A stretch of 64,000 nucleotides of DNA from Lingula anatina (GCA_051362555.1 CM120646.1:3348001-3412000), one strand, 5' to 3'. Counted from the stretch's first letter, positions 1 to 63,752 are shown. Made by a program: numbers and translations. The notes: generated by a model not told the origin, from the sequence alone.

Positions 1-936
1 TGTTCAGGAGCGTCCGCAAATCCGGAGTCACGGATGTGACTTGTGTCAACGAGCGCTAGTGGTGGTGGTGGTGGTGGTGGTGGTGGTGGTCGTGGTGATG
101 GTAGTAGTGGAGAGCCATTGTCACCGAGAGAACTAGGACCTGGTTGAGGTTGCCCTTCCACAGTTTCGTCGCTAAAGTGTGGTCCATCTGGGCCTTCGTC
201 TCCAGTCTGACATGTTCCATCCTGTGTCGCCACCCCCTTGTTTTGAAAGGAATAATAAATTATTCAATATATTTTGTTACATTGCAAATAGTATGATTTT
301 AGAATGTAAATGCTGAAATGACGACATCTGTTATCCAAGTGTATTTGGGTGATATACATATTTGGGACTCGTATCAGAAGAAGAGCAAAACAAATGAGAA
401 CTAGAAAAGCACTCCGAGAGAGCAGACCTCCGCCAAGGTAGAAATTATTGATCCGGATCAACACCAAAAACTAATCACTTCTAAGTTAACCTATTTCTGA
501 CCTACCTTGAAAATTTCATCAAAATCGGCCCATAACTTTTTGAGTTATGTTGATGACAAACAATCAAACAGACAGACAGACAAACAGGGGCAAAAACATA
601 ACCTCCTTGGCGGAGAAAATGCAATTTAACCAAAACGTAAAAAAATCCCAGCCCACAAATTTGTCGTGCAACTTTAATACATGTATTCAGGGTAGAATGT
701 AATTTAACCTGAATTAACTATTGTTCATAATATTAGATCTTTATACCTCTTGTTGGCATTCCAAGCCGTCAGACTGTCTCTGGAGAAAAGGGGGAGGTAG
801 GCCACCCCTAAAAAAAATATAAAAAATGAAAATCAATGAAACTTGAAATAAGCTGAAATAACAACTATTTTATCAGTTCCTTCCTATCCCCCCTCTCTCT
901 CTCTCTCTCGTTTAATAAATAGGAGGGAGGTCGAAA

Positions 937-971
<35 letters not shown>

Positions 972-1651
972 ATATTAAGGCCGTGTTCACAACCAGCAGA
1001 ATAACTAGTCCCGGATTAAATATGGGGCGCACTTGGTAATGGATTTCCGCTTCCCAAACGCGCCGTCCCAGTAGGGGCAGAGCTGTTTTAAAATCTCTAC
1101 ACGCTTTTAAAAGTGGGTCGCACCATAATATTTGGTCCGCGGACTAGTTATACATTAACATACTAGTTATACATTAACATACTAGTTATACATAAACATA
1201 CTAGTTATATGTTAACATACGTGGTGTCATCGAGTGGAGAATTGACGTCACATGACGAAGCTGTCTCTTCCTGTGGTTCACCTATAGTTTCTTCGTTGCT
1301 TACATCGCCTTGTCCTTCGTTATTCCTGGCATCTGTAAATTAACAATAAGTGAGAGGCCAAATTCAGTAAACATTCTGAATTTTTTACAAAAAGAAAGAA
1401 AGAAAAATAGAAAAGATTAAAAGAAAACAAGATCGTTTCCTCAACAACGTAGGCCTACTAACAAATAGGTGACAAAACTCCGCCCAAGAGTCATTTGAAC
1501 CCCCTGTATTGACAGTGAGCGGTGGCTTTATTGCAATAATTCTTGTCACGTTTGTCATCGGACTACGTGACCTCCATTGTTCTTAGAAGACTATTATGGG
1601 TCAGAGGTTTTTTGGTAATGATGAGATTGTTAAAAAATTATTATAAAAGGG

Positions 1652-1689
<38 letters not shown>

Positions 1690-2496: not shown

Positions 2497-3026
2497 ATAA
2501 GAGTAGGCCTATATTTCTCTACTTCTGCTACAGTGTGACACCGACCTTGTTCCGGCTGTGAAATACCCGCATTCAGCGCTCTCCGCAGCTTATCCAGTGC
2601 TTCTGGGTTGTCTTTAGGAAGGACGGCATCTCCGAAGGGAAGACCTGTAGTAACGTTAAATTTTTTAAACTCCTGTATGTTGTTAATATCTTGTTTGCTA
2701 ACATCAAGGACATAAAGAGGTATAAACCTATCAGTTTTCAGCCGATCTAGAAAGGCGTTTTGAGCAGTATAATTGTTCCAGCAGTCTTCGATGAAAGCTC
2801 GGCACATGACTGGTACAATAAACTTGGAGTTTTCGAAAGCATCAATAACTGAGAAAACACTTTGCCCAGGCAAAACGTCTCTGAGGTCGAAGTATACGTT
2901 TAGGTTACATTCGGTTTCCAAAAAGCTAGCGAGCGCATACGCAAAATTTCTACTTGTACTTCTACCATCATGGCCCAACAGGCAAACGTCATACTTGTAT
3001 GGCTCTACTCTGGAACTTGCCGCCAT
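1..3026 (-). CDS. Gene A: TIR-domain protein with Pro-rich linker (3' end outside window); exons 2546-3026, 1221-1332, 747-807, <1-236
   Basis: TIR motifs YDVCLL, VYFDLRDVLPG, SKFIVPVMCRAF, RFIPL. In-frame TGA two codons before the ATG. GT/AG boundaries with phases 1/2/0 give an open frame ...SQPEQ-DARNNEG...DDT-TGGLPPPF...CQQE-GVATQDG...PPPPPPP...DSGFADAPE. Confidence 0.8.
399..616 (+). mobile_element. Short HINE/MITE-like element in gene A intron 3
   Basis: AACTAG start, sub-terminal IR CCTCCGCCAAGG…CCTTGGCGGAG, (ACAG)n; absent in paralogous introns. Confidence 0.7.
2546..3026 (-). CDS. Gene A exon 1, TIR domain (subtype 1)
   Basis: ORF 2451..3026. Donor GAACAAG|GTCGGT, shared with all paralogs; the ORF beyond it runs into a (CT)n microsatellite. 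Confidence 0.88.
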
Positions 3027-7035: not shown

Positions 7036-7166
7036 CCGGCCCCTTATGCACATGTACCCACATTGCATAAATTATATTATAAATTTAACCACAGACCCAG
7101 ATTACAATATTTTGTCTATGTTGTAATTAAAAGGTCTATGACTTAACCACTTTAACCTCCGTCACA

Positions 7167-14972: not shown

Positions 14973-15317
14973 TCAGTCATCTGATTTGTCCGGGAACAGC
15001 TGTGGTGTCGAGTTCTCTGTATACAATAAACTGGTCCAGATGACTGGGGCAACCTCTCTAAGAAAAGAGGACAGTGAACCCATCCAACTTCGCACAGCAT
15101 TCTCGCCGCTTGCATCCTCCACAGCGTCTTGACCCTGTCTCTCTTCGGCCGTCTCTTCTCCAATAGCTTCGCAATCCTTGTTAAGGCCCTCAAATACCTT
15201 TGATTGTGTTTTAGGCATAGATGAGCCGGGGCTGTTCAAGGCTGCATGGGGCGAGGAGAAAACGTGGTCATCAGGAGCGTCCACAAAGCCGGATTCACTT
15301 GGTTGTGTCTCCATTCC
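14973..15317 (-). CDS. Gene B last exon (acidic linker + conserved C-terminal tail)
   Basis: ORF 14973..15314 preceded by acceptor AAAACAAG|GGA; tail WMGSLSSFLREVAPVIWTSLLYTENSTPQLF. Confidence 0.8.
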   Translation of the reverse strand, partial: GMETQPSESGFVDAPDDHVFSSPHAALNSPGSSMPKTQSKVFEGLNKDCEAIGEETAEERQGQDAVEDASGENAVRSWMGSLSSFLREVAPVIWTSLLYTENSTPQLFPDKSDD

Positions 15318-15760
15318 CTTGTTTTAAAAGGAATAAAAAATATTCAATATATTTTGTTATATTACAAATAGTATATTTTAAGAATGTTAATGTTGAAATG
15401 ACGACATCTCTTATTCAAGTGTATTTGGATGCTACACATATTTGGGGCTCCTAGCAGGATATGAGCAAAACAAATACGAAAAACAAATTAATGTGAGAAC
15501 ATGCAATTTAACCAAAACGTTTAAAAATCCCAGCCATCAAATTTGTCGTGAAATTTTCGATTGCGATATATATATTGTCACTGCAGATATTCGGAGTAGA
15601 ATATCTCGTAATTAAACCGGAATGAACTATTGTTCATAAAGCTACAATTATATACCTCTTGTTGGCATTCCACGCGGTCATACTGTTTCTGGTGACCCCT
15701 GAAAAATATAGAAAATGAAAATAATTGAAACCTGACGACGATTTTATCAATTTCTTCCCA

Positions 15761-15796: not shown

Positions 15797-16549
15797 AATA
15801 AATATTAATTTTTGAGTAAAATGAAAGGTCACTTCACTATGCAAACCATTTTCAGAGATAAAGCCAACTTAAATTTAAAAATTGTCGAAACGAAACAGGA
15901 GGACGAGGGGCTCTCTGTAGCCCTCTGCATCTGCCTCTCGGTATGCTTCTGATTATCAGATTATTCTATATATAATCATGATCCAATTTACACCTGATTC
16001 AGCTCTATATCAAAGTAATTGCCCTGTCCATCGAAGAGGAGTACAGCGCGTAATGGTAAAGACTTACGTGACATCATCTCGTAAATAAATGACTTCACAT
16101 CGCGGAGCTGACCCTGCCTGTGGTTGACTTATTTTTCCATTGCCTACATCGCCTGGTCCTTCGTTATTCCTGTCATCTGTAAATACGTAAACAATAAAAT
16201 TGCTCATAGAGCAAAGGCCTTGCAAATGTGAAATTTTTTTGAAAGGCACTTAAAAGTATTGTTAGTATAGACTTATTTTGGTGACAATTATGGCTATTTA
16301 GAAATTTAGTCAATACTTCAACCAAGGAGTTACAACTGTTGTAACTCCTTGCTTCAACTTAAGCTAAGACTTGTTTATAAAAAGAATAGAGGCTGTCTTT
16401 TTGGATTGATATGTCATTAATATTGGGCATGGAAATATCACCTGTCTATATTTATACGAAATGGTGGCGGCGATCAGCTGTTATTGCTTAGAAAATGTCA
16501 GTGACTTTTTGTCCAATCAAGTACATGCTATTTTTTTCTTTTTTTCTTT

Positions 16550-36207: not shown

Positions 36208-36557
36208 CGGGAACAGCTGTGGTGTCGAGTTCTCAGTATACAGTATACAGGTCCAGAATACTGGGGCAACATCTCTAAGAAAAGATGACAGTGAACCCAT
36301 CCAACTTCGCACAGAATTCTCGCCGCTTGCATCCTCCACAGCGTCCTGCCCCTGTCCCCCTTCGGACGTCTCTTCGCCCGTGGCTACGCAATCACTGTCT
36401 TCACGGTTTGGGCCCTGAAAAACTTCCGACTGTGTTTGAGGCACAGGTGATAAGGGGCTGTACCAGGCGGTAGGGGGTGACGAAGAAGGAGCATTCGCAA
36501 ATCCGGAGTCAAGGCCGGTGCCAACAAGCGCTAATGGTGGTGGTGGCGCTAGTGTTG

Positions 36558-36589
<32 letters not shown>

Positions 36590-36608
36590 GGTGGTGGTGG
36601 CGCTAGTG

Positions 36609-36640
<32 letters not shown>

Positions 36641-39048: not shown

Positions 39049-39792
39049 CAGTAGTAGTAGCAGCAGTAGTAGTAGTAGTAGTAGTAGGAGGAGGAGGAGG
39101 AGGAGGAGGAGTGATATTATAGCCCCTTCTCGCTAAGATTTTCGCGATCTCGACTATAAGCAGTGATCTGAGTAATAGGTCAATTTTATATTTAAACTTT
39201 TTTTTATTTTTTCAGTATCTATCGATTTAGCTATTGATTTATTTTCCATACTTATAAGAGAGAGAGAGAATAATAACAGTCCAACTACCAGTACAGTGTG
39301 ACACCGACCTTGCTCCGGCTGTGAAATACCCGCAGTCAGCGCTCTCCGCAGCTTATCCAGTGCTTCTAGGTTGTCTTTAGGAAGTTTAGCATCTCCAAAG
39401 TGAAGACTTGAAGTAACGTTATATTTTTTAATCTCCTGAATGTTGTTAATATCTTGTTTTCTTACATCAAGTACACAGAGAGGTATAAACCTATCAGTTT
39501 TCAGACGATCTAGAAAGGCACTTTCAGCAGTATAATCGTTCCAGCGGTTTTCGATGAAAGCCCGGCACATCACTGCAACAATAAACTTTGACTTTTCGAA
39601 AGCCTTAAGAACATCGAAAACACTTTGGCCGGGCAAAACGTCTTCGAAGTCAAGGAACACATATAGGTTACATTCAGTTTTCAAATAGGCCTAGTCAGCA
39701 AGCGCATACGCAAAATTTCTACTTGTACTTCTACCATCATGGCCCAACAGGCAAACGTCATACACGTATGGCTGTCTGGAACTTGCTGTCAT
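36202..39792 (-). pseudogene. Gene D: TIR-domain paralog (subtype 1) with premature stop; exons 39309-39792, 37832-37940, 37143-37203, 36202-36798
   Basis: ATG at 39792 (MTASSRQPYVYDVCLLGHDGRSTSRNFAYALAD*AYLKTEC). TAG at codon 34 (39691-39693) is created by a 6-bp GGCCTA insertion. The last codons are displaced by a ~2-kb TE. Frame otherwise intact. Confidence 0.8.
36535..36657 (-). repeat. Coding (CCA)n/(ACA)n microsatellite giving poly-Pro/poly-Thr; homologous tracts at 57-110 and 25526-25600
   Basis: GGT/GTT triplet runs inside exon 4. Confidence 0.9.
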
Positions 39793-43795: not shown

Positions 43796-46700
43796 TTAGC
43801 TGGAAAACAGCTGTGGTGTCGAGTTCTCAGTATGCAACATAGAGGTCCAGATGGTTAGGGCAACACCTCTAATAGACAGTCCTTCTACAGTTTGGTGCAT
43901 TACATCTTCGCTGAAGTGTGGTTCACCTGGGCCTTCGTCTCCATTCTGACATGTTTTGAAAGGTAAAAAATAAAATATTTTAATTAATTTTGTTATATTA
44001 CAAATAGTATGTTTTAGAAAGTAAATTTAAAAATGACGAAATTTGTTATTCAAGTGTATTTGGATGATATGCATATTTGGGATTCATATCAGAAGAAGAG
44101 CAAAACAAATATGAAAAACAAACCAATGTGAGAACATGCAATCAAGTTAATCAAAAAGTTAAAAATTCCCAGCCCACAAATTTGAACTGCAACTCTCGAT
44201 TGCGATATATGTATTGTCATTGCAGATATTCAGTAGAATATCACGTAATCAAACCTGAATTAACTTTTGTTAACAAAGCTAGATCTACCTCTTGTTGAAA
44301 TTCCACGTGGCCAGACTGTCCCTGGGCACCCCTGAAAAAATGAAGAAAAAAAAAATAAATAAATAAAAATAATTGAAACTTGACATGAAAAAAAAAAAAA
44401 AACAGTTTAATCAATTCCTTCCTACTTATATCCTTCTCTCTCTCATATAAAGGGGATCAACTGAAGTGGGTTTACATAACTGAAAGATGCACATACTAAA
44501 ATAGGCATTGGATATGTGTACAGTGCATAACAAAATCCTGTTTTAAAAATGCTTACTCGGCGTTTTAAACGCTTACCTCTTTTTTTTCTTATTCCTAACT
44601 TTATTCTTATTGTATTTCCGAATGTTTGATCTACAAAATTTCTGTGTCAGGTCACATCCTCTGGTCATCTGTTCTCACGTTTGAAGTAGTTAGCTTATAT
44701 GTATTTTGGTATTTGAATGATCTAAAGTAGTTATACTTATTTAGGCTTATGTGCACAATTTATGTAAAACTGTAGTATAGAGAGCTTGTAAAATGTAACT
44801 GTACACATTTTAATGATCAATAAATTATCAATATTATTATTATAATAATTATTATTATTATTATTATCAAGAAATCGCGTTAAAATGTTTGCAGCACTAA
44901 GTAAATATAAGACTTACAAAAATTTAGGGAGAAAGTTAATGTTTCTAGGATAGGTTCGTTTTATAAAAAAAGCTACACTATACTGCAAAGAGAAAATGCA
45001 GTGAAGGTGAAAAATCCACGAAGAGCCGTCTACGAGACGGGTAAGCACTGAGATTATAACAGAATACGTAACAAAACTGATCTTGATCATTCAACATCAC
45101 ATATCGCTCACCAAATTTATGATGCGAAATCTGTTATTACTGTCACTTTCCTATTTAGAATATCAAAAAGGGGAAATTTCATCCTCTCTATGTGCGATTT
45201 GTGGTATTTTTCATTAGTTTTTAGTAAATTAAGATCTAAGTTCACTACACAAACCATTTTGGTAGAGAATGAAAACTAGAGGATCAGAGAGGCGATACTG
45301 CCTCCGAATGTTGTACCACCAGCTGGAGTAAGCGCATTCGTATAGACCCCCCCCCCCCCCCACACACACACACACACAAAAAGAGGGACACCACCACCAG
45401 TCTTATGCTTGACAAGCTGTAAAAAATTCAATCAACAAGAATTCTCAAAATATGCCAAATATATATATATATATATTTCAAGGTCACAATTAGATTGCCA
45501 GTATATGACTTCCTATTCGAATTCAATAGTAACTATGGGCGTATCTTTGCCAGTTTTGGAGATAAAAGGGAACTAAAATTTGCAAAGTTACGTCCATGGT
45601 TAAAAGTAGGTCAAAGGTCAATTTTAAGGTCACATTTAGATTGCCAGTATACGACTTCCTATTTAAGTTCAATAGTAACTATGGACCTCTCTCTGCTAGT
45701 TTTGGAGATAAAAGGGAACAAAATTTGTCAAGTTCAGTTCATGGTTAAAAGTAGGTCAAAGGTCAATTTTAAGGTCACAGTTAATTGCCTCTAATGACTT
45801 TCTATTCAAATTCAATAGTAACTATGGGCGTATCTCTGCCAGTTTTGAAAATAAAAGCATTAAAAAGTTGCAAAGTTCAGTTTATGGTTTAAAGTAGGTC
45901 AAATGTCAATTTCAAGTTCAGAGTAAGATTACAAGTATATGACTTCCTATTCAACTTCAATAGTAACTATGGACCCATCTCTGTCAGTTTTGGAGATATA
46001 AGGGACTAGATGTTATAATTTTGAAGTTACAATAATGTGCCATAAATTTCCTACAGAAAAATAATTAATTAAAATAAAGAAATGGTCATTTTGGTTGAAA
46101 TTCTTGAAATGGGAGGTGCTCAGAAGTTCCAGATGTTCAAATTTCATGAAATAATGTCATTTTGACCAGAAGTTGTCTGCCTCGCCAAGCCTTATGTTTT
46201 ATTTTCCCGGGGTTCAAAATTTATTATCCATTACCGTACTGCACATTTTGCTTTCACCACCAATATGTACTTTTTGATACAGCGTCACTCGAAAACCGTA
46301 AGGAATACAAAAAAACGGAGACCACTTTCAGTGTTGAGCTTTACATGCTCTACAAAATGCAAAAAAGAATGGTCGTCTAGTATTAACGGTTCCCGAATTA
46401 GAGACAGTTTTCAGTTTTTGGTATCTTATGGCCGCTACTCCCGTGAAAATGCACCGATTGACCCCAAATTCACGGAGATGAAAGATGACCCGAAGGGTAA
46501 CACTTTCCAATAATATTATTGGTTAAGTCTGTGTAGTGTCTGAATAACAGCGCAAAGTATTCTTTTTCGTAAAAAATTTCGTTTTTTTTTTTGAAAAATT
46601 TGGCCCGTTTGACCTTGAAATAAAGGTCAAGGGTCAAGTCGAGGGCATATTTGAAATCTACACATATGACTTTTGGAAACCCTTTTGAAGAAATTTTTCC

Positions 46701-49700
46701 CATACTTCCTTCCGTAGGGTAGATAATTAGCATTTAATTTTGCCATTTTTGGACAAGGGTGCATTGCAATGAGTGCCACACCTAGATCCCAATACCGACA
46801 AAGCCCAAATTTTACGTGGAACGAGTTGAGATAATAGGTGACCTAAATCCAAGAGATGGGTACGGAGGCCCTTACCGTCTAGGAGGAGAAGCGGTAACGG
46901 TAACATGTCGGCGGAGCCGGCGGAACGATCCGGACGGGACTAAAACCATGTGTACCGCCAGCGCCAACGCTGGTGGTACAATTAATAAACATTTGAAAAT
47001 TAACAAAATGAAAAGAGAGGAACTCCCTATATCACTCGGTATCTGCCCTTGTCTGTATGACTCGGATTATCAAATTATTCTTTATAACTATGATCCAATT
47101 TACAACTCATTCAGCTCTTAATCAAAGTAATAATCCTGTCCATTGGAGAGGAGTACAATGCATAATGGTTAAGACATTAACTTACGTGACATCTTCACCT
47201 GACGGAGCTGACCCTGCCTGTGTTTGACTTATTTCTTCATTGCTTTCATCGCCTAGTCCTTCGTTATTCCTGCTATCTGCAAATATGTTAACAAAAAGTA
47301 AGAGCCTAAATCCAGTTAACATTCTGGATTTTATTACAAAAAAGAAGCAAAGAAGGAAAGAAAAAAGAAAAGAAAGAAAAAAGAGAAAAAAAAAAAGAAA
47401 GAAAACGTGGTAGTCAGCTGGCGACTGGTTTCCTTAACAACATATAAACAAATAGCTGACAACAAATAAATAACCTATCAGTCATTTGAACCTCCCCCCC
47501 CTCCTCTGCGTCGTTCAAACCTTAAAGTCAGGAATAAATGTATAAATGGTGCTTGATTACACCCCATCCTTTTACACTAAGTAACCCTTTTTTAATTCCA
47601 GATCTTCATCCAAACCCAACATAGAGGTGCAATTCACATGCTGAAGTGTCAAAAAATAAAATTTATTGAATTCAAAGTTGTATTCAATTTTTAAAAACAT
47701 ATATGTATTGTTACGTCCTATATTGAGTTCTTTAATAACAAAAAAAATAAAGCATAAACATAAATACGAATGAAAACAAACACCTCAAATTAAAATGATA
47801 ATATTTTACTAATTGAACTAAAACCTAACTAAACATATAATAACATTGAACTAAATAACTTAACTAATATGGGCTTTATAATGTTCAAACAAAGTTAGTG
47901 TTCACAGGATAAAAGAGTCATTCCACGCACTTCCATTTCATTGTCATTGTTCATTTGTGTAGGCCTACGTACCTTCCTTGCGTTGTTCGTAATAGTCAAT
48001 GCTTTTTCTCAACGTTACTTATCTTTTGTCAATCATAGTTCCCTCTCTGTTTTCCGTCAACTTGTGTACTGATGCATGTACAATCATTCGCTTTTTCCAG
48101 CTTCCATATTTTCCATCAACTTGTGTACTAGTGCACGTACAGTCACTCACTTTCCTTTGCCTTTATGTATAGTACTATACATCCATGATCATTTAAAACA
48201 TAGTCCATCTATCCTAGCTCCTTGCTCTCCACGCCTACATGTCTCTCTTCTCCTTCCTTTCTCAGTGGGTGTGTCCAAAAACCTCCACATCCGGGCTCCT
48301 TTATTTTTGTCCACAGTTGTCACCAAAAGTGACCACGAGTTATACTCGCTATAGTTATAATGCCCATTGATATAGAATACAATTGACAGGAGTACTAGTG
48401 CGACGTAACACCCTTCCCCTTTTAAGTCAAGTTTAATTGATAAGATTAAACTTGGAATATTCCTATAAATATTGTATACAAACTACATAATTCTTAATTA
48501 ACTATAACTACTATATACACAACAACATGATCCTTAATTAACTATAATATTTAATATATTCTGGACAAAGCATCGGCGATGCAATTATCTTTTCCTCTAA
48601 TATGCAAAATATCCAAATCATATTCTTGCAACAATAAACTCCATTTAAGCAGACGTCTGTTATGATTTTTCATCTTTCGCAAGAATGTTAAAGGGTTGTG
48701 ATCAGTGTACACAACCACTGGTTGAGGTGTACATTCAACATAGACATCGAAATGTTGCAGAGCTAACACTAGTGCTAACGTTTCTTTTTCGATAGTGGAA
48801 TAATTTCTTTGATGAGAATTGAATTTCTTCGAAAAATATCCCACAGGATGTTCAATACCAAACCCATCACACTGCAATAACACTCCACCCGCTCCTACGT
48901 CACTAGCGTCAATAGCTAATCTAAATGGCCTATCAAAGTCAGGTGCCATTAACACGGGGTTTGAACATAATAACGCTTTCACTTTAGTGAAGGCGTTGTC
49001 ACACTCTAACGACCAGTTGAAAACATTCCTCTTTTTTAACAAATCGGTCAAAGGTGCAGTAACATCAGAAAAATTTTTGCAAAATTTCCTGTAATAGCTA
49101 CACATGCCTAGAAATCGCATAAGCTCTTTTTTGTTCTGAGGTTGAGGAAAATCAATGATGTTTTTAACCTTAGCTTCTACAGGTGTTACGCACCCCTGAC
49201 CCACGACATGTCCCAAATACGTAACTTTTGCCTGACCAAATTCACACTTGGCTAAATTTATGGTCAGACTAGCCTGTTTTAACCTTTGGAAAACTTCTTC
49301 CAACTTGATCATGTGTTCCTTCCAAGAATTGCTGAAAATCACAATATCGTCAATATATTTCTCAACGCCTTCCAAGTTATTCAAACAACTATCCATCATT
49401 CTTTGGAAGGTAGCACCCGAGTTTTTCATACCAAACGCCATAACTTTGTACTGGTATAAACCGGTTGGTGTAACAAACGCAGAAATTTCTTTCGCTCGTT
49501 CTGACAACGGTACACACCAATACCCTTTGAGCAAATCGCACTTTGTTATGAATTTTGCTTTCCCTATCTTGTCGATACAATCGTCCATTCTAGGAATGGG
49601 GTAAGCGTCAGTTTTGGTCACTGCATTGAGCTTACGGAAATCAGTGCAAAATCTCATTGATCCATCTGCTTTTGGTACTAAAATACAAGGAGAGGCCCAA

Positions 49701-52700
49701 TTACTCTGGCTCAATTCAATGAAACCGTTTTGGAGCATGTAATCAACCTCTTTCTGCATTAACTCGGCCTTTTTAGGACTTAGTCTGTACGGGTGTTGTT
49801 TGATAGGAGTACACTCCTCCAGAACAACGTCATGTACAGCTGCATTAGTCCTATTTGGTACATCAGGAAACAGACACCGGTATTTCAAAATCAATTCAAT
49901 CAACTCGTGTCTTTCTTTTGGTGATAAATGATGTAATTCACTATCTAATTTCTCTAATACATCTGAGTTGTGAAGTTTTACTTCTTTAACATCACTATCA
50001 TTCTCATTTTCCTCAACTGACTTCCTCTCCATCCATTCCACATTCATCACTTTTTCACTTCTGTCTCGTTTTTCTTTGCGTTCAAAATGTGCCTTCATCA
50101 TATTTATGTGACACAACTGAGTCATTTTTTTACGATCTGGAGTTCGTATTTCATAATCTACCTCATTGATCTTTCTAACCACTTTATATGGACCGTGATA
50201 TTTTGCCTGTAACGAATCTCCTACAATAGGTAACAAGACTAAAACGTCATCACCTATGTTGAATTCGCGGGCACAAGATTTTTGATCGTACCAGTTTTTC
50301 ATTTCAATTTGCGCGGACTTCAAATTGTTCCTTGCAAATTCACAAGCCCTATTCAATCTGTGCCTAAATTTTGTGACATAATCGAGAAGATTCAGTGAGG
50401 GACTACTTTGATTTCTACTCTTTGCCAGCATTGTTTCTTTTAATGCCATCAACGGCCCACGCACAGTATGTCCAAAAACCAACTCAAACGGACTAAAACC
50501 GAGAGATTCTTGTTTTGCGTCTCTTACCGCAAACAGTAGGAGATCAACACCTTCGTCCCAGTCTTTTTCATTTTCATAACAATATGTCCGTAACATGTTT
50601 TTCAAGGTCCCATGGAATCTTTCCAATGCACCCTGTGACTGCGGGTGATACGCGCTTGAGAAAATTTGCTTTGATCCGATCTCGTATACGACCTGTTGAA
50701 ACAAAGATGAAGTAAAGTTTGAGCCTTGATCAGACTGGATTTCCTTCGGCAACCCAACAAAAGAAAAGAAATGTATCATGGCCTTTGCCACTGTAGCTGC
50801 TTTGATATTTCTTAAAGGTATTGCCTCCGGAAATCGTGTCGAAGAACACATGATTGTAAGTAGAAATTGATTTCCCGTTTTCGTTCTAGGTAAAGGACCA
50901 ACGCAATCTACAATGACTTTACTAAATGGCTCGTCAACTGCTGGTATTGGATGAAGTGGAGCCAATGGGATTTTTTGGTTTGGTTTTCCCACCACTTGAC
51001 ACGCATGGCAGGTTTTGCAATATTCTGAGACGTCCCGTCTGATCTTTGGCCAATAAAAATATTTCATAATTTTGTCTTGCGTTTTTCTAACCCCAAGGTG
51101 ACCTCCCATAGGACTATCATGTGCGACGCTTAAAATCACTGGTCGGAATTTTTCAGGTACAACAATTTGGTAAATTGTGGCCCAATCATCCGATGCAGGT
51201 ATAGCGGGAGATCTCCATTTTCTCATCAATACTCCGTCTCGTATAAAATATCCACGAGGGACTTTTTTTATCTCGACCTCAGACAACACTAATTTGAAAA
51301 GTTTAGCTAAATCAGCATCCTTTCTTTGTTCGGTAACTAAGTCATTCTCTGGGTGTTGTAACTCACTACTCTCAACATCCAGTTCATTTTCTCCATCATC
51401 ATCAACACATTCATCAATTATACCTTCCATTTCATTCTTTTTCTCATCAGTTTTTGACATAGCACGGGTAAGCACATTTACGGAGCAAGACCGTTCACTT
51501 TCAACCTCATTTTCAAGGTGAGCATGGGGATCTTTACAAACTATAGGATCTGCAATCACTTTTCCTCCTGCTAAATCATTTCCAAGCAACAATGTCACCC
51601 CTTTAATTGGTAAAGATGGACGCACACCAACTATCACAGGACCTGAGACTAAATCTGATTTCAAATGAATCTGATGTAAAGGGACGTTCAAGAAACCGCA
51701 TTCTATACCCTGCGCAAGAACCTGCTCACCCGTGTCCGAATTTTCATCTAAAGGCAAAACTCCCTGTAACAACAAGGATTGGCTAGCCCCCGTATCCCTT
51801 AATATTTTAATTGGTTTCATATCACTCGGATTGTTCTCGAGAGACACGTACCCATCAGAGATGAAAGGCAAAAACCTATCCTCATCCTTCTGAGTAGCAT
51901 CTCTAAAATCTGTCACAGGGAACGATACCAATGCATTTGATTTCAATGTTTCGTTTTCTTTCTTCCTTTGCAAAGTCCAACATTCACTCAAAACATGCCC
52001 TCTTTTCTTACAAAAATTACAAAATGGTCCCAAAAATGCTTTTGACCCAGCGTCCTCCCTTCTTTCAGTACGAGGGAAATTTCGGGGAAACTCATTTAGG
52101 TGTGACAATGTTTGACTGGGAGAAACCTTTTCCACAGCCTTTTTACTCTTTGAAAAATTTTTATGCGTTAACGCATAGTTGTCGGCTATAGTAGCTATAC
52201 CTTCCAAACTATCTACATGAGATTCTTCTATATGAACTTTCAATGAATCTGAGACACATTCCTTAAACTCCTCTACTAAGATCATTTGCTTTAATTTCTC
52301 AAAATTTGATCCAACATCTCTCGACCTACACCACCGATCGAATAACATTTCTTTCTCACGCGCAAACTCAATAAACGTTTGGTCGTCCCTTTTGTATAAC
52401 TCTCTAAATTGCTGCCTATATGCCTCTGGTACTAATTCATAGGCTTTGAGAATGGAGTGCTTAACTTTCTCGTAATTTCCGCTATCCTCTAACGAAATCG
52501 CGGCATATGTTTCCTGAGCCTTCCCCGTGAGCACACTTTGGAGCATAATACACCACTTATCTATCGGCCATTCTAAGTTTTTTCGGCCATTCTAAGTTTT
52601 TTGCAACCTTTTCAAAATGCATAAAAAACTTGCCTACTTCTCTTTCGTTGAAGGGTGGGACAAACCTCAATTGTTGTGAACAATTTGTGAAACTACTACT

Positions 52701-55467
52701 ATGATTATCCCTAGCCTCTAGTTCTATCTTTCTCAACCTAACTTTTAACTCAAGCGTCTCATTTTCCTTTTCTATTTTTGCAATATCTAATTTCTTCAAC
52801 TCGATGTCTAATTCTTTAAGCATTATTTCCGATTCTATGTCAGGCTTAGCTTTCTTTGCGTCTTTATCAGAGCTTGAGCTTAACGGTAAATCAATGTCAC
52901 TGATGTCTATGATTATTTCTTTCAACTGGCTCTTAGACATAGACGTTTGGACATCTGCCTCTAATATTTTACATATTGCGATTAAATCGGCCTTTTTGAA
53001 TTTTTGCAACTCTTCTATTGTGGGATTTTCTAAAAATTCTTTATACTCCGACATCTTTAGGCTACTACACTATCTACTACTATCTACACTATTGTACTAT
53101 CATAAATAAGACACAACTTTGAACCTAACTACTCATACAGTCTATTTGTTCAGTAGAAAACGCGTCATTTCCCGGACGAGCCCCCATTTTTGTTACGTCC
53201 TATATTGAGTTCTTTAATAACAAAAAAAATAAAGCATAAACATAAATACGAATGAAAACAAACACCTCAAATTAAAATGATAATATTTTACTAATTGAAC
53301 TAAAACCTAACTAAACATATAATAACATTGAACTAAATAACTTAACTAATATGGGCTTTATAATGTTCAAACAAAGTTAGTGTTCACAGGATAAAAGAGT
53401 CATTCCACGCACTTCCATTTCATTGTCATTGTTCATTTGTGTAGGCCTACGTACCTTCCTTGCGTTGTTCGTAATAGTCAATGCTTTTTCTCAACGTTTC
53501 TTATCTTTTGTCAATCATAGTTCCCTCTCTGTTTTCCGTCAACTTGTGTACTGATGCATGTACAATCATTCACTTTTTCCAGCTTCCATATTTTCCATCA
53601 ACTTGTGTACTAGTGCACGTACAGTCACTCACTTTCCTTTGCCTTTATGTATAGTACTATACATCCATGATCACTTAAAACATAGTCCATCTATGCTAGC
53701 TCCTTGCTCTCCACGCCTACATGTCGCTCTTCTCCTTCCTTTCTCAGTGGGTGTGTCCAAAAACCTCCACATCCGGGCTCCTTTATTTTTGTCCACAGTT
53801 GTCACCAAAAGTGACCACGAGTTATACTCGCTATAGTTATAATGCCCATTGATATAGAATACAATTGACAGGAGTACTAGTGCAACGTAACAGTATATAG
53901 AACAAAAATCCACGACTGGCTCAATTTAAATTCAAATTTTAATTTTTACCATGTCTTTTACATTACGCAGAGAGCCCTAAATAGTTACGTATGTTCCAAA
54001 AACGTGCGGTACACTGTACCTCAAGGGGCTTTGCGTCATGGCTAATATTTGGTATCGTATGTTCTCTAGAAAAATTATTACAATGTTTCATTGTTGGTGC
54101 AAGAGAAAACAGTGTTTTCTTTTGCTGACCGAAAAAACATATTGTGATTCCATGAGAGTTTGGCATTTCTGATATAATACTTGGAGCACGAGGGGAAAAA
54201 TAATTTATATAATGTTTACTTTACTGTCGGTAGGGTGTATTCCCCTCCCCCCCTTTTTTTTTAATATTCATTGACAAGCAAACTAAAGTTTTTCAAAGAC
54301 AATTGCTCTATACAGAAGATTATTTTAATTTTTTACAACGTTATACTTGAAGGAGATAAATCAAAGACCAAAACCAGTGATGACTGGATTTTCAAACGTT
54401 TCACAGTTGGACGTTTGCACTTGTGACATTAACGTATGTTCCTTTTTGGGGTTAGACGATGAATTATTTTTTATTATTCATGGTTCCAGTAGAGTGAAAC
54501 TCTGATACAAACTTCTTCATGTGAGGCCCTAACATAGTTTGCAATCTGAGCACTAAATATTTTAAGAGCATGCCTGTGACATCAATTGCACCTCTATATT
54601 ACAGTAGGTTTGGGTGTTTATGCGAGGACCGCCATATGCATAAGGATAAAAGAACTGTTTTGTTTTGTACTATTTTATTAAAAGGATAACAGTTCTTCAT
54701 ATGAAATTCAAAATTCCACAATGAAAATACATTGTAAGCAACACACAGAAATATTATAAATTCCATTTTACCACCAAAACGGTGTCTATCGCAATTATTC
54801 TGAAATATGTCGGACATCGTAGACCTTCATAGATGGCTACTCTCCGACCCGTAAAAACGCACTTAAAAACAATGCAATCAAATAGCTTTGAATGTTGGAT
54901 CAGATTCATTATCCATTACTAAAGATGGGAACATCGTCTATCACTTTTCCCGACAAAATGAAACGTTGCAAGCCATTCTGATATATTATCTGGAAAATAA
55001 TATATAAAATGGGGATTGACCCGCCGTTGGTTTCTTTGTCAACGTACAAACACAACTCGACTCAGCCTATGACTCATTTGTACTGACAATAACAAAAAAA
55101 GCCCCTCGCTTGGAAAAAATCTATAGCCTACAAAAGGGTCTACAAACATTGGCACTTATGAATAAGGGGACTGCGTAGTGAGCTCTAATCGGAGAATGTT
55201 AGGCAGAAAGATCCCCTTGCGTCCCAGGTTTTAATTTTTAATTTCAAACCTGTCAGTCAAGAAGAAATGTGAATAAGGTGGACTCAACCCACTCAACCAA
55301 TAAACAATTTTATTAATCTTATTCTCAATTAGTGATTTATATTATTGTACATTTGTTTAAATTGACCACTTATACGTTGCAAGGTATCCTGATATAGCTA
55401 CTAGAGGGCTATATTTATAACGGAAAAATAATATTGTATAAAAAAAGTCCCGTATAGACCCACCGTT

Positions 55468-55503: not shown

Positions 55504-56647
55504 TCAACGTGCAAAAACAACTCGACAAAGCCCACGACTCATTTGATACCCCCTGTATTGACAATAACAAAAAAAGCCCCTCTTTCGGATGAAGTCTATA
55601 CAGTAGGGTCTACAAACAGTTTCGCGATCACGATCATTAGCTGTAACCTGAGTAACATACCTATTTTGTATTTAAACTATATTAATTTATGCTATATTTA
55701 TATATTTGCCCAATGATCCATTTGTTCATTATTCCAGTTGTCTTTCTTTATATTTTCATATATCAATTTATAATACATTTACATCAAATAATACTAATTG
55801 TAAAATATTATATATATAGGAAGAGAATTAAAGAAACTAAGTTAAATTTTAATGAATTGGAAAAAATGATAAGGTGGTATTTTGAAGTAGAAAAATTCAG
55901 GTACATTAGTAAAGGTGAGAAAGAAAAGTTAAACAAAAATGGACATCATTAATACACTTGTTTCAGAAAGAAGACGAATGAATGAGGAGTGAGTGAGTGA
56001 GCGAGAGAACAATTTATGTAATTTGTAACAACATTTTCTTTCTGGGAGAATAAATATATTAAAAAAAAATTATAACACATCGAGGGAGAGGGAGAGAGAG
56101 ATAGATAAGATCGAATCATCTATTTCTGCTACTGACCTTGTTCCGGCTGTGAAACACTCGCAGTCAGCGCTCTCTGCAGATCACCCAGCGCTTTTTTGTC
56201 TTTAGGAAGGACTTCATTAGCATTAAAGTAAAGGGATCTTATAACCCTATATTTCTTCATTTTGTCGTTAATATCTTGGACGGTAACGCCAAGGGCACAT
56301 ACGGGTATGAACTCGGCACGTCCCAACCGATCTAGAAAGGCACTATCAGCAATATATTTGCTCCAGCAGTCTTGGATGAACGCCGGGCACATGACTGGTA
56401 CAATAAACTTCGACTTTTCTAAAGCATTAAAAGGTGCCTCAAAAACAAGTTGCCCAGGGTTCACGTCTCTGCGGGCATAGAATACATTAAGTTTACATTC
56501 TTTTTCCAAATATTCCAAGAGCGCTTCCGTAAATTTTTCACTTCTCGTTATAGCTTCCTCGTCTGCGTTTCCTGTAAACATTGTTCTATCACAACTCAAC
56601 AATAAAACGTCATATTTCCTCTGCTCTGCTCTGGAACTTGCCGCCAT
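43796..56647 (-). CDS. Gene E: TIR-domain protein with short tail, 264 aa predicted; exons 56137-56647, 47186-47276, 44289-44331, 43796-43945
   Basis: 511+91+43+150=795 nt, open. The usual exon-4 acceptor is deleted but the next CAG is in phase 0. Last exon NGDEGPGEPHFSEDVMHQTVEGLSIRGVALTIWTSMLHTENSTPQLFSS*. Gypsy element in intron 1. Confidence 0.68.
45273..46982 (+). mobile_element. Helentron/HINE-like non-autonomous element with ~146-bp internal tandem repeats (gene E intron 2)
   Basis: Starts AACTAG. Sub-terminal IR TGTACCACCAGC…GCTGGTGGTACA, 3' hairpin, about 4 core repeats at 45480-46000. Absent from the paralogous intron of gene D (~37590). Confidence 0.75.
47709..48410 (-). repeat. 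3' LTR of Gypsy element
   Basis: ~99% direct repeat of 53191-53892. Confidence 0.96.
48551..53054 (-). CDS. Gypsy/Gmr1 gag-pol (CCHC, protease LRDTGA, HHCC+DDE integrase, RT YIDD, RNase H) frameshifted by a 19-bp tandem duplication
   Basis: ORFs 52557..53054 and 48551..52546 join (…NLEWPIDKWCIMLQSV…, 1494 aa) when one copy of TCGGCCATTCTAAGTTTTT (52564-52601) is removed. Confidence 0.92.
53191..53892 (-). repeat. 5' LTR of Gypsy element
   Basis: Followed on the minus strand by the tRNA-Pro PBS at ~53170-53186. Confidence 0.96.
56137..56647 (-). CDS. Gene E exon 1, TIR domain (subtype 2, closest to F)
   Basis: ORF 56129..56647: YDVLLL, VFYARRDVNPG, SKFIVPVMCPAF. Confidence 0.88.
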
Positions 56648-59712: not shown

Positions 59713-59738
59713 TATCAATGGCCATTCTTAGCATTGTT

Positions 59739-60293
59739 TTAAGCTGAGAACAGCTGTGGTGTCGAGTTTTCTGTACACAAAATACACATCCAGAAGACTG
59801 GGGCAACATCTCTAAGAAAAGATGACAGTGAACCCATCCAACCTCGCACAGAATTCTCGCTGCTTGCATCCTCCACAGCGTCTTGGCCCTGTCTCTCTTC
59901 GGCTGTGTCTTCGCCCATGGCTTCGCAATCCCTGTCTTCACGGTTTGGGCCCTGAAAAACTTTCGACTGTGTTTTGGACATAGGTGAGACGGGGCTGTAC
60001 CAGTCCACAGGGGGTGAGGAAGAACCACGGTCTTCAGGAGCGGCCGCATTTCCCTCACTGAAATTCTGATTTAATGGCTCCAGTCGCGCTGTAACGGAGT
60101 CACGGCCGGTGCCAACATGCACAAGTGGTCGTGGTGGTAAATCCTGACTCAGATTATCCCCGGGAGAACTCGGACCTGGTTGAGGTTGTCCTTCCACAGT
60201 TTGGTGCCTTACATCGTCGTTGAAGTGCGGTCCATATGAGCTTTCGACCCTTGTCTGACGTACTCCATCCCGAGGTTCTAGTGTCTTCATTCC
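59739..60293 (-). CDS. Gene F last exon (linker + conserved tail)
   Basis: ORF 59739..60290, acceptor AAAACAAG|GGA; tail WMGSLSSFLRDVAPVFWMCILCTENSTPQLF. Confidence 0.8.
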   Translation of the reverse strand, partial: GMKTLEPRDGVRQTRVESSYGPHFNDDVRHQTVEGQPQPGPSSPGDNLSQDLPPRPLVHVGTGRDSVTARLEPLNQNFSEGNAAAPEDRGSSSPPVDWYSPVSPMSKTQSKVFQGPNREDRDCEAMGEDTAEERQGQDAVEDASSENSVRGWMGSLSSFLRDVAPVFWMCILCTENSTPQLFSA

Positions 60294-60758
60294 CTTGTTT
60301 TGAAAGGAATAAAGAAATAATTTAATTTAATTTGTTATATTACAAATAATATGTTTTAGAATGCACATGTTGAAATGACGACATCTGTTATTCAAGTGTA
60401 TTTGGATGATACACATTTAGGTCTCCTATTAGATCAAGAGCAAAACAAATATGAAAAACAAATCATTTACATGTGAGAACATGCAATTTAACCAAAACGT
60501 TGATTTGTCGTGCAACTTTCGATTGTGGTATATATTTTTTGTCATTGCAGATATTCGGAGTAGTATATCACGTAATTAAACCTGAAGTAACTATTGTTCA
60601 TTAAATTAGATATGTATACCTCTTGCTGGCATTCCAAGCCGTCAGACTGTGTCTGGAGAAGAGGGGGAGGTTGGCCACCCCTGAAAAATTAAGAAAATGA
60701 AAATAAATGAAATTTGAAATAAGCTGAAATAACAACAATTTTATCAATTCCTTTTTAG

Positions 60759-60807
<49 letters not shown>

Positions 60808-63752
60808 AGAAAATGGGAGGGGTCGAAATAGGTAAAGTTTGGTATTTCTCATTAGGTTTTAAGTTAAATAAAATCTTACTTCAGTATACAACCCATTTTT
60901 AAAGAAAACCCATTATAATAAAAGACATAAAACTTAAATTTAGAAATTCACAAAACGAAGCAGGAGGACGAGGGGGCTCCCTGTAGCCCTGTGTATCTGC
61001 CTCTCGGTATGCTTCTGACTATCAGATTATTTTATATATAATTTTATATATATATGTGGAATAATCTGATAATCATATTATTCCATATATAATTATGATT
61101 AAATTTACACCTCATTCAGCTCTCAATCATGGAAACCACTCGGAGAGGAGTACAATGCATTATGGTTAAGATATTAACATACGTGACGCCGTCGCATGGC
61201 GGAACTGACTCTTCCTTTGGTCGACTTAATTCTCCATTGCTTTCATCGCCTGGTCCTTCGTTATTCCCGTCATCTGCAAATATATTAACAATATTTAAGG
61301 GACCAAATTCAACTCACATTCTAAATTCTACTTAAAAACTAGACAGCAGAGCTGAGAAATATACAGATACCATAGAGGAAACAAGGGAGCAAAGCTGACA
61401 AATGTTCAGTACACAGAAAAGAGTGCGCCAAATAATATTTTGACCAATTTTAGTGCACTGTTTCCGGGTACATAATGCTTTAAAACAGCATACTCTTATC
61501 TTCTTACATTATGTACTACAAGTAAATGGACACTGAAATACTAGCAAGTAATTCAGTTTCATGGGATAGAAAAGCCACTGAAAATGTGTAAAATAAAATA
61601 AATATAAAAAAAAAGATTAATTACCGTAAACGTAAACCTATCATGCCGATTTTTGAAAGCAAGCTGCCTTTTAATCAAATAAAGCCACGAAGTAAATTTA
61701 AAGTAAAACGAAAATATAGTTTGATAACCGATAATGCTGATTTTTGAAAGCAACCTCATTATTTACCAAACAAAGCCACTCAGTAACTTTAAAGCAAAAC
61801 AAAAATAAGGTTTAGAAGTTGTGGGGCGAACGTCACCAAAATGTGAAAAAAACGAATTATTGCCGTAAATGAAAACAGATCGTGCCGATCTTCGAAAGTG
61901 ACCTGCCTCTTTACCAATGAAAGCCACTCAGCAAATTTCAAGTAAAAGAAAAATACGGTTTGGAAGTTATGGGGCGAAGGTCATGTGTCGGATAGCGACA
62001 GCGACGGCGAGGACACACCAATCAGACACACCAATCAGGATTACATGTGTCTGTATATAGATAGCAAAAAGAAAGAAAACGCGGTATTCCGGCGGCTGGT
62101 TTCCTTAACAACGTACCAACAAATAACTGACAACAAATAAACAGCCTATCAGACATCCCCTGCACATGCTATACAAACAAACCGACAACTTGGCCAATTA
62201 ACTTGGTCATTTAACTTGCCCGTTATGCTGTTAACAATGCAAAGACGACCTAAAGAATGGGCCCAGCCAGGGTGTTATAAACATGGGGCACGTATGAATA
62301 AGGGGACTGCGTAGTGAGCTCAAATCGTAGGATGTTAGGCAGAAAGATCCCATTGCGTCCCAGGTTTTAACTTTTAATTTCAAACCTTTAAGTCAAGAAG
62401 AAATGTGAATAAGGCAGACCCAACCCACTCCACCAATAAACACTTTTATTAATCTTATTCTCATTTTGTGATTTTAAAATTTTGCGTTATTGTACATTTG
62501 TTTAAATTGACCACTTATACGTTGCAAGGTATTCTGATATAGCTACTAGAGGGCTATATTTATAACGGAAAAATAACATTATATAAAAAAGCCCCGTATA
62601 GACCCGCCGTCGTTTTCTTTGTCAACGTACAAACACAACTCGACAAACCCCATGACTCATTTGATACCCCCTGTATTGACAATAACAAAAAAAAAAAAGC
62701 CCTCGGATGAAGTCTATACAATAGGGTCTACAAACAATTTTGCGATCACGATCATTAGCTGTAACCTGAGTAACATACCTATTTTGTATTTAAACTATAT
62801 TAATTTATGCTATATTTATATATTTGTCCAATGATCCATTTGTTAATTATTCCAGTTGTCATTCTTTATATTTTCATATATCAATTTATAATACATTTAC
62901 ATCAAATAATACTAATTGTAAAATATTATATATATAGGAAGAGAAATAAAGAAACTAAGTTAAATTTGAATGAATTGAAAAAAATTATAAGGTGGTATAT
63001 TGAAGTAGAAAAATTCAGGTACATTAGTAAAGGTGAGAAAGAAAAGTTAAACAAAAATGGACATCATTAATACACTTGTTTCAGAAAGAAGGAGTGAGTG
63101 AGTGAGCGAGAGAACAATTTATGTAATTTGTAACAACATTTTCTTTCTGGGAGAATAAATACATCTAAAAAAATTATAATACATCGAGGGAGAGGGAGAG
63201 AGAGATAGATAAGATCGAATCATCTATTTTGTGCTACCGACCTTGTTCCGGCTGTGAAACACTCGCAGTCAGCGCTCTCCGCAGATCACCCAGTGCTTTT
63301 TGATCTTTAGGAAGGACTTCATTAGCATTAAAGTAAAGGCGTCTTATAGCTCTATATTTCTCCATCTTGTTAAAAGTATCTTGTACGGTAACGCCAAGAG
63401 CACATACGGGTATGAACTGGGGACGTCCCAACCGATCTAGAAAGGCACTTTCAGCAATATGTTCGCTCCAGCAGTCTTGGATGAAAGCCGGGCACATGAC
63501 TGGTACAATAAACTTTGACTCTTTTAAAGCATTAAAAAGTGCCTCAAAAACTCTTTGCCCAGGGTTCACGTCTCTGTGGGGATAGAATACTTTAAGTTTA
63601 CATTCTTTTTCCAAATATTCCAAGAGCGCTTCCGTAAATTTTTCACTTCTCGTTATAGCTTCCTCGTCTGCGTTTCCTGTTAACATTGTTCTGTCACAGC
63701 TCAACAATAAAACGTCATATTTCCTCTGCTCCGATTTGCAACTTGCCGCCAT
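59739..63752 (-). CDS. Gene F: TIR-domain protein, 405 aa predicted; exons 63242-63752, 61183-61273, 60620-60680, 59739-60293
   Basis: 511+91+61+555=1218 nt, open frame, GT/AG sites homologous to paralogs. Confidence 0.83.
61336..62066 (+). mobile_element. Helitron/Helentron-like non-autonomous element with ~120-bp internal repeats (gene F intron 1)
   Basis: AACTAG start, TATATAGAT end, three related units at ~61617, 61735, 61856; absent in paralogs. Confidence 0.55.
63242..63752 (-). CDS. Gene F exon 1, TIR domain (subtype 2)
   Basis: ORF 63234..63752: YDVLLL, VFYPHRDVNPG, SKFIVPVMCPAF. Confidence 0.88.

What the first reader, a model, noticed from the sequence alone, without database searches (positions are those of the whole stretch)
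1..63752. Tandem array of six TIR + disordered linker + conserved C-terminal tail genes: candidate unnamed innate-immune adaptor family
Seen: the 'TIR-only' ORFs and the separate Pro/acidic ORFs in the ORF track are exons of the same genes. Homologous GT/AG sites with phases 1/2/0 join them into open frames in A, B, E and F. Known: metazoan TIR adaptors (MyD88, TIRAP/Mal, TRIF, TRAM, SARM1) and TLR/IL-1R have other layouts; none is an N-terminal TIR followed by a Pro/acidic linker and this C-terminal helix. The layout recalls MAVS (interaction domain, Pro-rich region, membrane tail) with TIR in place of CARD. Inference: a lineage-specific, rapidly diversifying signalling adaptor or decoy family evolving by birth and death.
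Basis: partly seen in the sequence, partly recalled or inferred. Interest (0 to 1): 0.85.

Follow-up and report, generated by a model that had tools for sequence, protein, structure and literature searches.

The report
Tandem TIR adaptor-like gene cluster
Six side-by-side copies of a spliced gene, likely from a brachiopod, encode an immune-type TIR domain on a long linker with a short helical tail; molluscs have relatives of similar layout, and the proteins likely act as non-enzymatic adaptors of Toll-like receptor signalling.

Summary
Six minus-strand TIR exons head a four-exon gene with intron phases 1/2/0. A (cut by the window edge), B, E and F are open, C lacks exon 2, and D has an in-frame stop. 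RNA reads show the TIR exon spliced to exon 2 (17 reads, 3 of 4 runs) and exon 3 to exon 4 (8 reads), but they come from paralogues or alleles. Two RefSeq Lingula anatina models have the spliced layout and put two different TIR exons on one tail. The TIR keeps the BB-loop Pro-Gly and lacks the NADase glutamate and Box 3. The family is not lineage-specific: its nearest relatives are uncharacterised mollusc proteins with N-terminal TIR, long low-complexity region and short C-terminal motif. The tail is not a clear membrane anchor, and its similarity among copies is no greater than young duplicates would give. The frame down to the tail is selected (19 of 21 exon indels in frame, 7 of 28 in introns). 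Best reading: a bridging TIR adaptor family in birth-and-death expansion, within the known 'orphan TIR' class. The two key catalogues could not be read.

The parts
2546..3026 (-). Gene A exon 1: whole TIR domain (A/D type)
   Evidence: Pfam TIR_2 E 4e-9; model
1221..1332 (-). Gene A exon 2 (acidic linker)
747..807 (-). Gene A exon 3
1..236 (-). Gene A exon 4, open, runs off the window; tail not visible
20929..21442 (-). Gene B exon 1: TIR (B/C type)
   Evidence: Pfam TIR_2 E 4e-10; depth 0 in 4 of 4 runs at 90% likeness
16068..16176 (-). Gene B exon 2
15656..15698 (-). Gene B exon 3 (18-nt in-frame deletion)
14973..15317 (-). Gene B exon 4: shortened linker (285-nt in-frame gap) and tail; protein 336 aa
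27221..27734 (-). Gene C exon 1: TIR (B/C type); no exon 2 follows; read-through into the intron would give a 173-aa TIR-only product
   Evidence: 143 of 171 residues identical to RefSeq isoform X1
26055..26115 (-). Gene C exon 3 (out of phase with exon 1)
25161..25742 (-). Gene C exon 4: Pro-rich linker and tail, open on its own
39309..39792 (-). Gene D exon 1: TIR (A/D type) with in-frame TAG at 39691-39693, inside a TAGGCCTA motif
   Evidence: 123 of 159 residues identical to RefSeq isoform X2, which has no stop
37832..37940 (-). Gene D exon 2
   Evidence: 12 junction reads begin exon 2 with D's first six letters
37143..37203 (-). Gene D exon 3
36202..36798 (-). Gene D exon 4: poly-Pro/poly-Thr linker and tail
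56137..56647 (-). Gene E exon 1: TIR (E/F type)
47186..47276 (-). Gene E exon 2, beyond a Gypsy element in the 8.9-kb intron 1
44289..44331 (-). Gene E exon 3
43796..43945 (-). Gene E exon 4: internally deleted, predicted new acceptor, keeps the second half of the tail; protein 264 aa
   Evidence: not covered by either read call
63242..63752 (-). Gene F exon 1: TIR (E/F type)
   Evidence: Pfam TIR_2 E 4e-9; donor at 63242 used by junction reads
61183..61273 (-). Gene F exon 2
   Evidence: joint 61273-63242, 1968 nt skipped, CT..AC ends
60620..60680 (-). Gene F exon 3
59739..60293 (-). Gene F exon 4: acidic/Pro linker and amphipathic tail; protein 405 aa
6478..13636 (-). BEL/Pao LTR retrotransposon between genes A and B (bystander)
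47709..53892 (-). Gypsy-type LTR retrotransposon in intron 1 of gene E (bystander)

Best explanation
This is a tandem, birth-and-death array of spliced genes for TIR-linker-tail proteins that likely work as non-enzymatic bridging adaptors on Toll-like-receptor signalling complexes. Shown: gene structure, family-level splicing and transcription, TIR fold (predicted model), BB-loop Pro-Gly, no catalytic Glu, no death domain, frame kept down to the tail. Inferred mechanism: the N-terminal TIR joins receptor or MyD88 TIR assemblies through its BB loop and helix C; the acidic/Pro linker is a flexible spacer whose length is free to change; the short amphipathic tail docks on a membrane surface or a downstream partner, the job TIRAP and TRAM do with N-terminal signals. 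Unequal crossing-over and conversion swap TIR exons against 3' parts, which would vary receptor specificity, and kill some copies (C, D in this haplotype). The array is probably the local expansion of an older lophotrochozoan family.
For: Structure and splicing; RefSeq Lingula models P0001 and P0002. Exon indels are multiples of 3 in 19 of 21 blocks against 7 of 28 in introns. TIR dN/dS 0.65, with 1.0 worse by 4.2 log-likelihood units on the same coarse grid. BB-loop Pro in 6 of 6 copies, no Glu at the catalytic position in 6 of 6, no FW Box 3. Box 2 without Box 3 is described as peculiar to TIRAP, and E75 as rare in TIRAP and MyD88 (PMC7075850, passages). The Lingula-only profile hits TIRAP best in the PDB (E 4e-7). 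Ten named mollusc proteins among 23 hits have an N-terminal TIR of the same signature. Their C-terminal motif is alike across gastropods and bivalves (Aplysia-Gigantopelta Z 10-11, Argopecten-Mytilus Z 6-8, 300 shuffles). One relative (Mercenaria) carries a death domain after the TIR.
Against: No binding, localisation or signalling data exist; adaptor and decoy predict the same sequence features. The wider profile ranks TLR15/TLR2 above TIRAP (69 against 57 bits), and the fold search gives a tie among TIR families (TIR-STING Z 15.1, MAL Z 12.8). Homology of the window tails to mollusc tails is not established: Z 2.4-4.6 to one Mytilus protein, 2.6 or less to the rest, and 0 of 6 positive with a mollusc tail profile. 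Tail and linker dN/dS cannot be told from 1. B had no reads in 4 of 4 runs and C only traces. RefSeq isoform X1 has Leu at the BB-loop Pro.
Confidence: 0.5

Rival explanations
1. The proteins are decoys or brakes: a TIR with no signalling module caps receptor or MyD88 assemblies, and the tail only sets location or half-life.
For: No death domain or other Pfam module in any window copy. In B, C, E and F an unspliced intron 1 gives a stop after two codons, i.e. a TIR-only product. Negative regulation has been proposed, unconfirmed, for mollusc orphan TIRs (PMC11103948, passages).
Against: The frame is kept to the tail through large deletions, mollusc relatives keep a C-terminal motif across classes, and one has a death domain. 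Read depth at the start of intron 1 of F was 0 to 0.5, so intron retention is not prominent there.
Confidence: 0.25
2. One or two copies are functional and the rest are redundant young duplicates drifting towards loss; the array itself has no special function.
For: C and D are disabled and E is internally deleted. Pairwise TIR dN/dS runs from 0.36 to 1.00. B is silent in 4 of 4 runs. 28 of 33 reads at one diagnostic site of the TIR exon are of the A/D type. Two recent LTR insertions lie in the array.
Against: All 7 indel blocks in exon 1 are in frame, and three TIR types persist. RefSeq holds models with both A/D-type and B/C-type TIRs. This rival concerns the copies and is compatible with an adaptor role for the family.
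Confidence: 0.13
3. MAVS-like tail-anchored adaptor: the TIR replaces the CARD and the tail is a transmembrane anchor on mitochondria or peroxisomes.
For: Domain-linker-tail order. Two Haliotis asinina relatives reach hydropathy 1.60 and 1.65 with basic flanks. Abalone and Aplysia are reported to lack MAVS (PMC11103948 search listing; PMC9334734 passages).
Against: Window and RefSeq tails score 0.94-1.36, hold Arg and Asp/Glu in the middle and are followed by polar or acidic residues. The model gives a 7-residue helix at pLDDT under 50. The Haliotis tails do not resemble the others (Z under 1).
Confidence: 0.07
4. Enzymatic TIRs (NADase or signal-molecule producers, SARM1-like) kept inactive by the tail.
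For: The fold also matches enzymatic TIRs (SPARTA Z 14.2, SARM1 Z 12.6). An Asp/Glu/Gln lies two residues beyond the usual catalytic position.
Against: The catalytic position holds Ile or Thr in 6 of 6 copies and is non-Glu in 20 of 20 mollusc-type relatives where the helix was located; only the two bacterial-like hits keep Glu.
Confidence: 0.04

Closest known systems
RefSeq LOC106177431 isoforms X1 and X2, Lingula anatina (XP_013415649.1, XP_013415650.1; uncharacterised)
   Same: Same family and same exon 1/exon 2 junction and tail; X1's TIR is 84% identical to C, X2's 77% to D.
   Different: One locus with two different TIR first exons on one short, shared exon 2 and tail; lacks exon 3 and most of the linker; not identical to any window copy.
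Uncharacterised mollusc N-terminal TIR proteins (Haliotis, Gigantopelta, Aplysia, Mytilus, Argopecten, Solemya, Mercenaria; named 'mucin-21-like', 'serine-rich adhesin' and the like)
   Same: N-terminal TIR with extended AA loop, RDxxPG, WxxY without Glu, no Box 3; long low-complexity region; short hydrophobic C-terminal segment in most full-length records.
   Different: Only about 25-40% identity in the TIR; linkers up to 1600 aa; tail homology to the window copies only suggestive; Mercenaria has a death domain.
'Orphan TIR' (OrTIR) / cytosolic TIR-DC proteins of molluscs and other invertebrates
   Same: TIR is the only recognised domain; no signal peptide-LRR-TM layout; function unknown, adaptor or negative regulator proposed (PMC9334734, PMC11103948, PMC10279657, passages).
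   Different: That class is a bin by domain content, not a family; the passages seen do not describe this layout, exon structure or array.
TIRAP/MAL (TIR group 10 of PMC7075850)
   Same: Box 2 without Box 3, no E75, W71 and Y74; best PDB sequence hit of the Lingula sequences.
   Different: TIR is N-terminal with no N-terminal membrane-binding segment; lacks C7, Q78 and the helix D motif; not top with the wider profile or by fold.
MAVS
   Same: Order of interaction domain, Pro-rich low-complexity region and short tail (MAVS layout recalled).
   Different: TIR, not CARD; no convincing transmembrane segment.

Membership tests
TIR domain proteins | Pfam TIR/TIR_2 above cut-off and TIR fold | tested here: met
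   6 of 6 exons; model pLDDT mostly 75-95 over residues 11-160, Z 15.1, rmsd 2.3, 133 aligned to oyster TIR-STING
Orphan TIR / cytosolic TIR-DC class | TIR is the only recognised domain | tested here: met
   No Pfam family in 4 of 4 exon-4 frames; TIR only in P0001 and P0002; no usable Atlas hit for the tail
ecTIR-DC families of Gerdol et al. 2017 (notably 8, 10, 15, said not to be identifiable by Pfam architecture) | Family definitions in the original paper | not testable with these tools
   Papers not held; only the footnote in the PMC8662601 supplement was seen
TIRAP/MAL | Box 2 (RDxxPG) present, Box 3 (FW) absent, E75 absent | tested here: met
   RDxxPG exact in 4 of 6, Pro-Gly in 6 of 6, no FW, no Glu (definitions)
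TIRAP/MAL | Helix C patch W71, Y74, Q78, E82 | tested here: inconclusive
   W in 6 of 6, Y in 5 of 6, position 78 Ser/Asn, position 82 Asp
TIRAP/MAL | Box 1 YDVCVCH with C7; helix D motif YPxELRxxY | tested here: not met
   C7 in 0 of 6 and the helix D motif in 0 of 6 (alignment)
TIRAP/MAL | N-terminal lipid-binding region before a C-terminal TIR (recalled) | tested here: not met
   TIR begins at about residue 11
TIRAP/MAL | Closest known TIR by sequence and structure | tested here: inconclusive
   First, second to TLR15, rank 25 by Z; no tree with TLR, TIRAP and MyD88 sequences could be built
MyD88 | Death domain plus TIR with Box 3 | tested here: not met
   No death domain, no FW
SARM1 / NADase TIRs | Catalytic Glu (E75), SAM and ARM domains | tested here: not met
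   Ile/Thr at the position in 6 of 6; no SAM or ARM
TRAM/TICAM2 | Gly2 myristoylation signal (recalled) | tested here: not met
   N-termini read M-A/T-A-S in 6 of 6
MAVS | N-terminal CARD | tested here: not met
   TIR at the N-terminus
MAVS | C-terminal transmembrane anchor | tested here: not met
   Best Kyte-Doolittle 19-mer 0.94-1.36, under the recalled mark of about 1.6; charged residues inside. A simple scale only; no dedicated predictor was available.
Mollusc N-terminal TIR-linker-tail proteins | Nearest relatives by TIR and shared signature | tested here: met
   20 of the 22 non-Lingula hits are mollusc or mollusc-like; none of the 20 hits looked up is named TLR, MyD88, TIRAP or SARM1; one-way search only
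Mollusc N-terminal TIR-linker-tail proteins | Homologous C-terminal motif | tested here: inconclusive
   Z 2.4-4.6 to one Mytilus tail; profile tests negative

The most novel reading that the evidence does not exclude
An old, undescribed lophotrochozoan adaptor family fills the place of TIRAP/TRAM-TRIF in brachiopods and molluscs, with an inverted design (TIR first, docking motif last). In this brachiopod the locus works as a cassette: several diversified TIR first exons are spliced or recombined onto a common linker and tail, giving variable receptor specificity on a constant output, as the two RefSeq isoforms suggest.
Probability: 0.2. Interest if true: 0.8.

Novelty: new variant of a known kind. 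Interest (0 to 1): 0.5.

Why it matters
Lophotrochozoans have expanded TLR sets but no recognised TIRAP, TRAM or TRIF, and the partners of their many cytosolic TIR proteins are called elusive in recent papers (PMC10279657, PMC9334734, passages). A defined family with a TIRAP-like, non-catalytic TIR and a C-terminal motif kept across molluscs gives concrete candidates for the missing bridging adaptors. Databases hide them under names such as 'mucin-like'. The array also shows how TIR exons are shuffled against a common 3' part.

Tried and rejected
The run search listed no RNA holder; the runs laid were raw-read runs added by species label. The word-based search for longer homologues of F's TIR found none among 984 candidates (weak). 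Complex prediction of F's TIR with F's tail gave no verdict (score 0.01). The Atlas search of the tail gave no usable hit. Profile and profile-profile tests of tail homology to molluscs were negative; the 8-sequence mollusc tail set was picked by eye from 21 long records, and leave-one-out recovered the tail with a positive score in only 2 of 8. No relative was found in metagenome or viral contigs (0 of 451 and 0 of 291 pattern matches confirmed). No kB-like site and one ISRE-like site lay within 700 bp upstream of the six starts (248 bp for F), no more than background. The topology test of mosaicism was one-sided: exon 1 rejects the 3' tree, but the 3' data do not reject the exon 1 tree (p 0.115). 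The protein tree has only two bacterial-like outgroups and cannot show that Lingula and mollusc proteins form one clade against TLRs or TIRAP. TIRAP orthology was considered and not accepted. Three look-ups in earlier findings returned nothing. Nine paper searches listed no paper whose title or seen passages describe this family or array.
Full report
Observation. The window is AT-rich eukaryotic DNA (GC about 0.38). Six minus-strand frames pass the Pfam TIR cut-offs (6 of 6). Self-comparison shows that each is followed by homologous downstream blocks. Aligning those blocks gave a four-exon model with GT/AG introns in phases 1, 2 and 0 in A, B, D, E and F. A is open for 296 codons up to the window edge, B encodes 336 aa, E 264 aa and F 405 aa. 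C has no exon 2 (no remnant by BLAST), so splicing exon 1 to exon 3 shifts the frame. D has six extra bases with an in-frame TAG at codon 34. E has lost the usual last acceptor and most of exon 4; its model rests on the next in-frame AG and was not covered by reads.

Transcription. No RNA holder was listed, but nine raw RNA runs with the same species label were offered; eight were laid. On F at 82% likeness, a joint skips exactly the predicted 1968-nt intron 1 in 5 reads (4 in X5, 1 in X8; the tool flags 'between: not known'). Twelve more reads (8 in X8, 4 in X9) use the same donor and enter exon 2 with the six letters that start D's exon 2. Eight reads (4 in X5, 4 in X6) join an exon 3 variant to exon 4. 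No exon 2 to exon 3 joint was listed. Depth lies on exons and on repeats in intron 1, and is near zero in intron 2. The two runs that look stranded point to minus-strand RNA under the usual convention. The reads are from relatives, not F: 1 of 1608 is 99% or more alike, 28 of 33 at position 63260 carry the A/D-type letter, and 30 of 32 read F's stop as a sense codon, matching the RefSeq C-terminus. On B and C at 90% likeness (four other runs) B's TIR exon had depth 0 in 4 of 4 runs and C's under 1.

Named relatives. The only close proteins are two RefSeq isoforms of Lingula anatina LOC106177431, so the window is probably from Lingula or a near relative (inference). X1 has a C-like TIR (143 of 171 identical) and X2 a D-like TIR without the stop (123 of 159); both sit on the identical exon 2 and tail. 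This is either true alternative first exons or a merged gene model. It fits the window's mosaic look: E and F are 92% identical in exon 1 but 80% in exon 3 plus intron 3, while A and F are 72% and 86%. The formal topology test was one-sided (p 0.115 for the 3' data).

Wider family. A full HMMER scan with C's TIR gave 23 hits: the Lingula isoform, two bacterial-like TIRs that keep the catalytic Glu, ten named mollusc proteins (Haliotis asinina 2, H. rubra 2, Gigantopelta, Solemya, Argopecten, Mercenaria, Mytilus, Aplysia) and ten unnamed records of the same type. I looked up 20 of the 23; none is named TLR, MyD88, TIRAP or SARM1. A profile search added nine hits of 380-635 aa, six named Mytilus and three unnamed (only the top 7996 candidates were scored). 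These proteins start with the TIR and continue with low-complexity sequence. Many end in a short hydrophobic segment: the most hydrophobic stretch after the TIR ends within 35 residues of the C-terminus in 15 of 28 sequences, window copies included. That motif is alike between gastropods and bivalves (Z up to 11). Its link to the window tails is only suggestive (Z 2.4-4.6 to one Mytilus protein; profile tests negative). The window and RefSeq TIRs form one group (99/98), so the array arose after the split from molluscs; the tree cannot test monophyly against other TIR families.

The TIR. AlphaFold on P0001 gives a confident TIR and a low-confidence remainder (pLDDT under 50 for 209-260). Fold matches are tied across TIR families. 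By sequence the Lingula set hits TIRAP first (Atlas 0.89, a lead only), but the wider profile ranks TLR15 first. Against the group definitions in PMC7075850 (passages), the copies share with TIRAP Box 2 without Box 3, the missing E75, and W71/Y74, but lack C7, Q78 and the helix D motif. I read this as a non-catalytic, scaffold-type TIR that resembles TIRAP without being shown to be its orthologue.

Linker and tail. The linker is acidic, Pro/Gly/Gln-rich and poor in hydrophobic residues, and varies widely in length among copies. The tail has a moderate amphipathic moment (about 0.6) but a best hydropathy of 0.94-1.36 with internal charges, so a transmembrane anchor is unlikely. Its similarity among copies is close to that of the neighbouring intron, and its dN/dS is not distinguishable from 1 on 41 codons. 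The stronger sign of function is the frame: 19 of 21 internal gap blocks in exons are multiples of three (the other two are adjacent and sum to 12), against 7 of 28 in introns (exons were delimited as open frames, which favours this a little). TIR dN/dS is 0.65: purifying but loose, compatible with relaxed constraint or some positive selection.

Mechanism. Most likely the TIR joins TLR or MyD88 TIR assemblies, the linker spaces, and the tail docks on a membrane surface or partner, making a bridging adaptor (0.5). A decoy role is the main rival (0.25). All steps after the sequence features are inferred.

Comparison with print. By domain content these are 'orphan TIR' proteins, counted but uncharacterised in Aplysia (17; PMC9334734, passages) and abalone (21; PMC11103948, passages). 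PMC10279657, PMC6321704, PMC5549309 and PMC6836662 (passages) and PMC8662601 (passages and supplement parts 7-8 of 8; the column heads of its Table 4 are missing from the text) refer to ecTIR-DC families, three of which are not definable by Pfam architecture. The defining papers, Gerdol et al. 2017 and the 2018 Lingula immune catalogue, were not held and I saw nothing of them; they may already list this family. Nine searches found no description of it.

Verdict. Interest 0.5.

Noticed in passing
window 6478-13636: BEL/Pao LTR retrotransposon with identical 558-bp LTRs, a 5-bp target duplication and one unbroken 1807-codon frame: a very recent insertion.
   Followed up: partly
window 47709-53892: Gypsy-type element with a SCAN-like hit, LTRs differing at 6 of 703 positions and a 4-bp target duplication, inside intron 1 of gene E and on the same strand.
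   Followed up: partly
window 19790-20489 and 41233-42450: Broken Tc1/mariner transposase pieces, 88% alike and inverted to each other; one lies in intron 1 of gene B.
   Followed up: no
whole window, e.g. 39686-39693: TAGGCCTA occurs 12 times against 0.59 expected; one copy holds D's stop codon. It looks like a transposon excision footprint at TA sites (inference).
   Followed up: partly
window 59700-59741: F's stop appears premature by about ten codons: 30 of 32 reads and both RefSeq models continue through it.
   Followed up: partly
window 14800-14945, 24506-25083, 17482-18375, 27876-28200: Short interspersed repeats with high RNA depth (hundreds of reads from other copies), some inverted.
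   Followed up: no
window 35628-36170 and 45475-46005: Tandem repeats with units of about 180 and 146 bp; the first has an inverted copy at about 34233-34478.
   Followed up: no
P0015 (Mercenaria mercenaria): TIR followed by a death domain, the reverse of MyD88's order, then a long linker and tail.
   Followed up: no
P0008 and P0016 (Haliotis rubra): Two loci of this family on contigs of the same length (1,615,937), probably one scaffold: clustering may recur in abalone.
   Followed up: no
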